Assembly (NCBI GenBank): GCA_964016885.1
Contig: OZ024749.1
Coordinates: 15,314,001-15,378,000 of the forward strand
Source of the DNA: Eledone cirrhosa
Lineage: Eukaryota
Length of the DNA stretch: 64,000 nucleotides
Direction: 5' to 3'
In this document: positions 40,822 through 41,006 of the stretch, one piece after another
Numbering within the stretch: the stretch's first letter is position 1
Layout of the letters: every line of letters begins with the position of its first letter
The notes under the pieces: model-generated
The model's input: the letters and a program-made list of their open reading frames with translations, nothing else
What the model was told of the DNA's origin: nothing
Database searches by the model: none
Made by a program: the position numbers and the translations under genes

Positions 40822-41003
40822 ATATTTATTAAAATAACAGATTAAAGTTTCAGAAGATCCCGTTAAGGGTGAAAGCAGCGATTCTTTGCTTAAACTTTAA
40901 TCTGTTATTTTAATAAATATTTGCTCTACGGTTCTTATATATCTGATATATATTTATCCTTATCGAGCCCTCTTTGGATTTTAGTCTTCAAATTTATTAT
41001 TAT

Positions 41004-41006
<3 letters not shown>
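40822..41006 (+). mobile_element. Family D mini-element with a variant hammerhead at 40846-40896
   Basis: A 29-bp perfect inverted repeat (40822-40850 / 40892-40920) encloses CAGAAGA...GAAA; the element ends ATTATTAC(TA)n. Confidence 0.75.

What the first reader, a model, noticed from the sequence alone, without database searches (positions are those of the whole stretch)
40822..41006. Fold-back junction located exactly at hammerhead stem I creates a hairpin-capped mini-element of about 180 bp
Seen: in the longer family D copy, stem I is a 5-bp AGTTT/AAACT preceded by unique sequence (15241-15255). In two dispersed copies (40822 + and 31326-31502 -) everything upstream is replaced by the reverse complement of the downstream flank, extending stem I to 29 and 24 bp and then running into (TA)n. 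Inference: the cDNA snapped back using the ribozyme's own stem I to prime second-strand synthesis, and the product may itself be mobile. This would be a concrete mechanism for the inverted pLTRs of Penelope-like elements.
Basis: partly seen in the sequence, partly recalled or inferred. Interest (0 to 1): 0.75.

Follow-up and report, generated by a model that had tools for sequence, protein, structure and literature searches.

The report
Two-armed stub of a Penelope retrotransposon
This small DNA hairpin is a real but likely dead-end stub of an abundant Penelope-type jumping gene, likely made when both ends of a cut TA repeat each copied the element's RNA from a different fixed starting point and the two copies were joined, rather than by one copy folding back on its ribozyme.

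Summary
The hairpins are real: arms of 29 and 24 bp, different flanks, both in (TA)n. They are stubs of a Hydra-clade Penelope-like element with about 49,800 tail copies. The stem-I snap-back and mobile mini-element readings are not supported. The exact stem-I joint occurs 32 times among 15,679 exact cores. An unrelated 5-bp microhomology joint occurs 29 times and a joint at the start of stem I 123 times. In 20 of 31 stem-I copies the inverted arm is longer than the direct arm, which snap-back cannot make. Arms end 3' at two fixed sites (+22 to +29 and +114), and 81 of 84 classified joints pair one of each (46% expected). Arms break most often at the first base of stem I (-46), often with an extra G, and not at the predicted ribozyme cut. 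Best reading: both target ends prime reverse transcription, one copy runs off the likely capped RNA 5' end, and AGTTT/AAACT is only joining microhomology. The RNA start is inferred; no RNA data were available. This scan reached much the same reading earlier on other DNA of this genome (six unreviewed notes). I did not find it in print.

The parts
40822..40850 (-). Inverted short arm: reverse complement of element positions +1..+29 (+1 = first base after the predicted ribozyme cut); its last 5 bases AGTTT are shared with the direct arm
   Evidence: (L128)
40846..40850 (+). AGTTT: 5' strand of hammerhead stem I (-46..-42); 5-bp joining microhomology; the A at 40846 is the family's breakpoint peak and inferred RNA start
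   Evidence: RNA start inferred
40851..40891 (+). Type I hammerhead-like core (CAGAAGA-U, 3-bp stem II, U-GAAA, stem III, predicted cut after 40891); U4 of the usual core is A
   Evidence: no Rfam hammerhead match; activity untested
40892..41006 (+). Long tail (+1..+115), the stretch between ribozyme and ORF start in full copies; ends at the long start site and runs into (TA)n
40806..40821 (.). Left (TA)n target remnant
41007..41050 (.). Right (TA)22 target remnant
31326..31502 (-). Second stub with the same joint: 24-bp inverted short arm plus long direct arm, in (TA)n, unrelated flanks
   Evidence: (L127)
15000..15317 (+). Longer two-armed copy: 12-bp inverted long-tail stub (15000-15011) joined to a direct arm from about -286 to the short end (+22), then (TA)n
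   Evidence: read by eye
14653..14935 (-). Perfect inverted duplicate of 15000-15282 across a (TA)33 tract, cut inside the ribozyme core

Best explanation
The 185-bp unit is a two-armed, 5'-truncated insertion of a Hydra-clade Penelope-like retrotransposon, likely made when the two ends of a cut (TA)n target each primed reverse transcription from a different fixed site of the element's RNA, one copy likely ran off the RNA's capped 5' end at the first base of hammerhead stem I, and the two copies were likely joined through the AGTTT/AAACT microhomology. Shown: the parent element and its ORF; two fixed 3' ends (+22..+29 and +114); one-long-one-short pairing of arms; the breakpoint peak at -46; excess of an extra G there; no peak at the predicted cut; no excess of the stem-I joint. 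Inferred: two priming events per insertion, a capped RNA start at -46, uncleaved RNA as template, and microhomology-mediated joining. The stub is likely not mobile as a unit.
For: Parent: L066 holds two direct pLTRs 3,259 bp apart around a 641-aa frame with RT, linker and GIY-YIG-type motifs. Pairing: one long plus one short arm in 29 of 31 stem-I copies, 25 of 25 classifiable start-site joints (30 examined) and 27 of 28 classifiable TTTCA joints (29 examined); pooled 81 of 84 against 46% expected from 34 long and 62 short unselected copies, p about 5e-24. 10 of 12 longer head-to-head pairs with both cores show the same (by eye). In 20 of 31 stem-I copies the inverted arm is the long one. Breakpoints: 50 of 88 arms that break before -75 do so in -38..-52 (3.3 per base against 0.6-0.85 in the core and 0.14 further upstream). 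Genome-wide estimates of true breaks: about 1,900 at -46, 450 at control site -27, 270 at the predicted cut (totals 2,461, 719, 779 times the share of true breaks counted by eye in the first 100 rows). Extra G on the sense strand: 50 of 77 breaks at -46 against 21 of 63 at -27 (p = 3e-4); by script 18 of 27 in L234-L263. Joint counts with equal-length patterns: 32 stem I, 29 TTTCA, 123 start-site. Palindromic joints with no spacer or a 1-base spacer (L218, L030, L193, L208) cannot be a single-strand hairpin. In vitro, an anole Penelope protein cuts and extends both target strands, starts at two internal RNA sites, prefers uncleaved RNA and is predicted to be a dimer (PMC11167929).
Against: No RNA evidence for a start at -46 was obtained. 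21 of the 50 extra-G cases continue as CAG, which a short fold-back or the partner arm could template; without them the excess is 29 of 56 (p = 2e-5 against 25%). The two window copies are of the minority shape (9 of 31) that snap-back could also make. Among breaks at +1 the stem-I joint is the commonest single outcome (11 of 35). The anole enzyme starts at sites without homology to the target, whereas both sites here resemble TA repeats, so the short end could be a joining site and not a start site. Whether both arms come from one RNA molecule is unresolved: 3 shared against 68 unshared variants in arm overlaps (two of the three are duplicates of one locus; random pairing gave a mean of 0.35), and L142 has arms of different subfamilies. 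Breakpoint sampling comes from the first 30 Mb of one contig and from first-100 listings; a few palindromic breakpoints were mis-called by the script (L153, L158, L189).
Confidence: 0.72

Rival explanations
1. Snap-back: one cDNA stops at stem I, its AAACT end pairs with its own AGTTT and primes the second strand; for the window copies the extension would then stop at the TA-like site and join the other target end.
For: The geometry fits the two window copies and 9 of 31 stem-I copies. The cDNA end does fall at -46 often. Short CAGAA additions after -46 (about 15 of 77 breaks, by eye) look like brief fold-back synthesis. L114 shares a rare variant in both arms.
Against: Cannot make the 20 of 31 copies with a longer inverted arm or L142. 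Mirror shapes occur at every joint type tested. No excess over an unrelated 5-bp microhomology.
Confidence: 0.12
2. Two-end priming is right, but the peak at -46 marks something other than a capped RNA start: a reverse transcriptase stall at the folded ribozyme or a splice acceptor (the upstream bases end in TTAG/TTTCAG).
For: Peak lies exactly at a helix boundary; in Drosophila virilis Penelope an intron ends at the 5' end of helix I (PMC4209133). No RNA data here.
Against: What follows -46 is heterogeneous, often flank DNA directly, so no fixed upstream exon or leader. A stall does not explain the extra G, and the break rate falls about 20-fold beyond -52. The bases around -46 read TTAGTTT, which fits the initiator consensus YYANWYY (consensus recalled, not tested).
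Confidence: 0.1
3. The inverted arm ends where the ribozyme cut the RNA: one cDNA runs off the cleaved 5' end (AAACU...), leaving an end complementary to the other cDNA.
For: The inverted arm ends exactly at the predicted cut, and stem-I joints are 11 of 35 breaks at +1.
Against: Breaks at +1 (about 270) are fewer than at a neutral control site (about 450). The end at the cut follows by construction from the stem I microhomology. The core has A at U4.
Confidence: 0.03
4. The hairpin-capped unit is a non-autonomous element that amplified from one ancestor.
For: 32 dispersed copies share one joint; one tandem pair exists (L138/L139).
Against: Mirror architectures (20 vs 9), two short-end variants, and all three parent tail haplotypes among stem-I copies: 18, 4 and 2 of 29 long arms against 12, 8 and 3 of 34 unselected. 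The count matches an arbitrary microhomology joint.
Confidence: 0.02
5. Post-insertion DNA rearrangement or assembly artefact around (TA)n.
For: The window holds several perfect palindromes centred on (TA)n (14653-15282, 31889-31978).
Against: These joints have a 41-base spacer, are not centred on (TA)n, recur on many contigs, carry aged differences between arms, and follow the long/short rule.
Confidence: 0.01

Closest known systems
Hydra clade of endonuclease-bearing Penelope-like elements (Craig et al. 2021, PMC8557442; passages and supplement search seen)
   Same: C-terminal endonuclease, RW[K/R], DKT, CxCX5C linker, CxxC/CxH motifs, (TA)n targeting, pLTR hammerhead with the same layout as Hydra-1_aJap; adjacent inverted 5'-truncated copy and a tail at one end only.
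   Different: Not Hydra-1_Obim (different hammerhead; our core string is absent from the supplement). Tail is about 85-90 bases, not 30-40. The paper leaves the origin of inverted copies open.
Anole Poseidon element PAc in vitro (Frangieh et al. 2024, PMC11167929; parts 1-2 of 4 read)
   Same: Two internal start sites that define the tail; both target strands cut and extended; ribozyme cleavage not needed; predicted dimer.
   Different: Different clade; its start sites lie in the ORF and lack target homology, and it reports no start-site difference between strands. It does not report one-long-one-short pairing within an insertion or run-off at the RNA start in the parts read.
L1 twin priming and untemplated 5' G (review PMC4859970, passages; the original Ostertag and Kazazian 2001 paper was not held)
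   Same: 5' inversion ascribed to priming from both target strands; extra G ascribed to copying of the cap; small indels at the joint.
   Different: Recalled, not read: in L1 one primer uses the poly(A) tail and the other a variable internal site, and arms mostly do not overlap. Here both start sites are fixed, lie near the RNA's inferred 5' end, and arms overlap to give hairpins.
Non-LTR retrozymes (bioRxiv 10.64898/2026.07.22.740005, part 1 of 5 read; PMC4209133 parts 1-2 of 4)
   Same: Short non-coding derivatives of PLE pLTRs carrying a type I hammerhead; PMC4209133 already notes pairs of minimal hammerheads on opposite strands 100-700 bp apart.
   Different: Retrozymes are head-to-tail tandem units with complete ribozymes; these stubs are head-to-head single insertions without evidence of their own amplification.

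Membership tests
EN+ Penelope-like element (parent family) | Single ORF with RT and C-terminal GIY-YIG endonuclease | tested here: met
   Motifs read in L066 and L090 and conserved in 8 aligned relatives; 567 relatives, one of 120 listed carries PF01541. Pfam and PDB sequence searches of the query gave no hit. L066 has a premature stop near the C-terminus.
EN+ Penelope-like element (parent family) | Partial-tandem pLTRs, adjacent inverted 5'-truncated copy, optional tail | tested here: met
   L066 direct pLTRs 3,259 bp apart; many inverted copies; two 3' ends.
Hydra clade | RWK-like motif, DKT, CxCX5C linker, CxxC and CxH around E and N | tested here: met
   RWR, DKT, CNCRNRVDC; CxH present, first Cys of CxxC is F in L090 but C in relatives.
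Hydra clade | Insertion into (TA)n | tested here: met
Hydra clade | Placement in an RT phylogeny with reference Hydra proteins | not tested
   No tree with named references was built.
Type I hammerhead ribozyme | Three stems around the core | tested here: met
   Stems I (5 bp, plus 7 bp beyond a bulge in native copies), II (3 bp) and III (5 bp) pair; layout matches Hydra-1_aJap. This fold (-10.0) is not the minimum-energy fold (-15.2 kcal/mol).
Type I hammerhead ribozyme | Conserved core CUGANGA...GAAA...UH | tested here: not met
   CAGAAGA in 15,679 exact copies; three Hydra rows seen have CTGA; no Rfam hammerhead match at E up to 10.
Type I hammerhead ribozyme | Self-cleavage | not testable with these tools
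   Indirect only: no breakpoint excess at the predicted cut.
Non-autonomous mobile mini-element or retrozyme | Copies descend from one unit with fixed ends | tested here: not met
   Mirror architectures and mixed haplotypes; no tree was built.
Non-autonomous mobile mini-element or retrozyme | Head-to-tail tandem units with complete ribozymes | tested here: not met
   One tandem pair among 31 copies.
Twin-primed insertion (works like) | Both target ends prime on element RNA; arms joined by microhomology | tested here: inconclusive
   Strongly implied by 81 of 84 long/short pairing; direct test needs biochemistry. Target-site duplications cannot be read in (TA)n.

The most novel reading that the evidence does not exclude
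Penelope-like elements insert by obligatory two-site twin priming: one protein dimer primes the two target ends at two fixed RNA sites, one each. When it does so near the capped 5' end of the RNA it makes strong-stop-like run-off copies, and tens of thousands of such stubs map the promoter and both start sites to the base. This would explain inverted pLTRs and the one-sided tail with a single rule.
Probability: 0.5. Interest if true: 0.7.

Novelty: new variant of a known kind. Interest (0 to 1): 0.45.

Why it matters
How Penelope-like elements make their inverted copies and one-sided tails is named as open in PMC8557442. The long/short pairing rule and the run-off peak turn that question into direct tests (cap mapping; a two-ended in vitro reaction). 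They also argue that the ribozyme's cut plays little part in insertion for this family. My searches found no paper stating the rule, but the library lacks most subscription journals, including early Penelope structure papers, and bioRxiv supplements were closed.

Tried and rejected
Rfam scan of the window: 150 of 220 rows shown, nearly all TA-hairpin microRNA look-alikes, no hammerhead among them; local scan gave none. The repeat finder was swamped by microsatellites. Pfam and PDB searches of the ORF gave nothing. Sequencing runs: no RNA holder listed. Contigs of four runs cover the family but none spans the locus, so they neither confirm nor question the joint. Shared-variant test for one RNA template had little power (65 joints, some duplicates, 59 scored long/short by an automatic rule). 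A downstream promoter element match was looked for by eye and not found (consensus recalled). Segmental duplication of the two window copies rejected. No tree of copies was built: 110 bp with little variation; haplotype counts were used. Rows left out of counts: 1 of 32 stem-I copies not fetched; 5 of 30 and 1 of 29 joints unclassifiable; internal deletions (5 each) and native continuations not counted as breaks; 31 of 89 G-class arms in the sampled range were not held. A sequence look-up in earlier findings returned nothing.

Full report
Observation. The two hairpins are as described. Window 40822-40850 pairs perfectly with 40892-40920 (29 bp) and the minus-strand copy has 24 bp. They match over 183 bp at 97.3% and share no flanks. 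The bases upstream of stem I in the long copy are not unique: they are the element's native sequence, found exactly 7,132 times.

The parent. The 39-base core occurs 15,679 times and a 15-base tail anchor 49,800 times (30,495 + 19,305; controls 12 and 2) in a 3.0-Gb genome. Locus L066 carries two direct repeats 3,259 bp apart around a 641-aa frame; L090 shows the C-terminus in frame. The motifs RWR, DKT, CxCX5C and CxH, and insertion into (TA)n, match the Hydra clade as described in PMC8557442; the Hydra label was a lead from earlier scan notes, checked here by motifs, not by a tree. The hammerhead-like motif has the layout of Hydra-1_aJap but A in place of U at core position 4, and no Rfam match. 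I number from the predicted cut: +1 is window 40892, and stem I pairs -46..-42 with +1..+5.

Two 3' ends. Among 96 unselected copies with an exact core, 62 end at +22..+29 and 34 at +114, both running into (TA)n. This is the optional tail of Penelope-like elements, which in the anole element corresponds to two reverse transcription start sites (PMC11167929).

Is stem I a special joint? With patterns of equal length, the stem-I joint occurs 32 times, a joint through an unrelated 5-base microhomology 29 times and a head-to-head joint at the start of stem I with an extra G 123 times. None of the first 100 exact-core copies has the stem-I joint. Among 416 short-gap inversion joints the first 100 show dozens of different junctions. 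So the joint recurs but is not favoured.

Can snap-back make it? A cDNA that folds back copies itself, so the inverted arm cannot hold sequence that the direct arm lacks. Of 31 stem-I copies examined, 20 have a long inverted arm and a short direct arm, 9 the reverse (both window copies), 1 two short arms and 1 two long arms that differ at subfamily sites. The same mirror split appears at the other two joints (11 vs 14; 12 vs 15). Pooled, 81 of 84 classifiable joints pair one long with one short arm against 46% expected. The longer window copy follows the rule too: a 12-base inverted long stub plus a short-ended direct arm. Joints that are palindromes with no spacer or one base need two strands. 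I infer that each insertion is primed from both target ends, one at each start site. This agrees with both-strand cutting and extension in vitro.

Why at stem I? In the first 30.2 Mb of contig C1, 88 of 158 held arms break before -75, and 50 of these break in -38..-52, with the peak at -46. Genome-wide, true breaks are estimated at about 1,900 at -46, 450 at control site -27 and 270 at the predicted cut, from totals and by-eye shares in the first 100 rows. After -46 the cDNA strand continues with C in 50 of 77 breaks, against 21 of 63 at the control site; by script 18 of 27 in the 30 loci held. An extra G on the sense strand is the accepted sign of a copied cap in L1 and SVA (PMC4859970). Twenty-one of the 50 continue as CAG and could be templated; the excess survives without them (29 of 56). 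The local sequence fits an initiator consensus (recalled), and D. virilis Penelope has an internal promoter with an initiator in its pLTR (PMC2377424, passages). I infer that RNA starts at -46, so that stem I begins the transcript and cDNAs run off there. No RNA data were available to test this.

Mechanism. Shown: parent, two ends, pairing rule, breakpoint peak, extra G, no peak at the cut. Inferred: the endonuclease opens (TA)n; one end primes at +114, the other at about +27; in the window copies the long cDNA runs off at -46, ending in AAACT; the short cDNA exposes AGTTT at +5..+1; five bases anneal, flaps are trimmed and gaps filled. Five bases of microhomology merge six cut positions into one sequence, so with partner breaks spread over about 160 positions roughly 4% of -46 ends would give this joint; the listings suggest 1-5% (1 of 77; about 86 of 1,900). 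Snap-back remains possible for these two copies taken alone, and brief fold-back synthesis at the -46 end may occur.

Mobility. Stem-I copies carry all three common tail haplotypes in proportions like the parent family and come in mirror architectures, which points to repeated origin, not descent from one mini-element.

Novelty. Inverted 5'-truncated copies, tails and opposite-strand hammerhead pairs are published for this class. Twin priming and cap copying are published for L1. I found no paper giving the long/short pairing rule or run-off at the RNA start for Penelope-like elements (searches; also 28, 43, 52). I reached the two-primer, capped-start reading before opening the scan's notes (stated); six unreviewed notes on other DNA of this genome say much the same, which is not independent support. 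Two of them also place a minority of ends at the ribozyme cut, which this family does not show.

Noticed in passing
window 14653-15282: A two-armed insertion is duplicated as a 283-bp perfect inverted repeat across (TA)33, the copy being cut inside the ribozyme core. Similar perfect palindromes centre on (TA)n at 31889-31978 and in L013, L028, L075. DNA-level fold-back at TA tracts or an assembly effect; unexplained.
   Followed up: partly
L134 (G000:C19, around position 1500): A stem-I stub is flanked on both sides by (TA)n plus the same 35+ bases pointing outward, so it sits at the centre of a larger inverted repeat.
   Followed up: no
window 819, 1105, 3575, 15801, 15816, 27415, 36644, 45006, 45353, 61368: Other hammerhead-like cores of unrelated families, including a head-to-head pair at 15780-15850.
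   Followed up: no
window 15235-15311: In native copies stem I can extend by 7 more pairs beyond a 9/2 internal loop, using bases upstream of the inferred RNA start. Only a read-through 3' copy would have this extension; the 5' copy would have 5 pairs.
   Followed up: partly
listing, G000:C1: About 15 of 77 breaks at -46 continue with CAGAA, some for only a few bases before unrelated sequence: possible brief fold-back synthesis at the cDNA end.
   Followed up: partly
L041/L049/L052/L061/L084/L085/L089/L090/L099/L100/L104: Long inverted arms often stop at +21..+46, near the short start site, as if blocked by the other priming event on the same RNA.
   Followed up: no
window 36357-36407: A 51-bp isolated tail fragment next to another repeat family; an insertion of that other repeat inside the tail is also seen in run X4.
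   Followed up: no
window 52834-53633, 47365-50605, 32258-32713, 26545-27014: Tandem arrays with periods of 206, 40/120, 95/191 and 72 bp.
   Followed up: no
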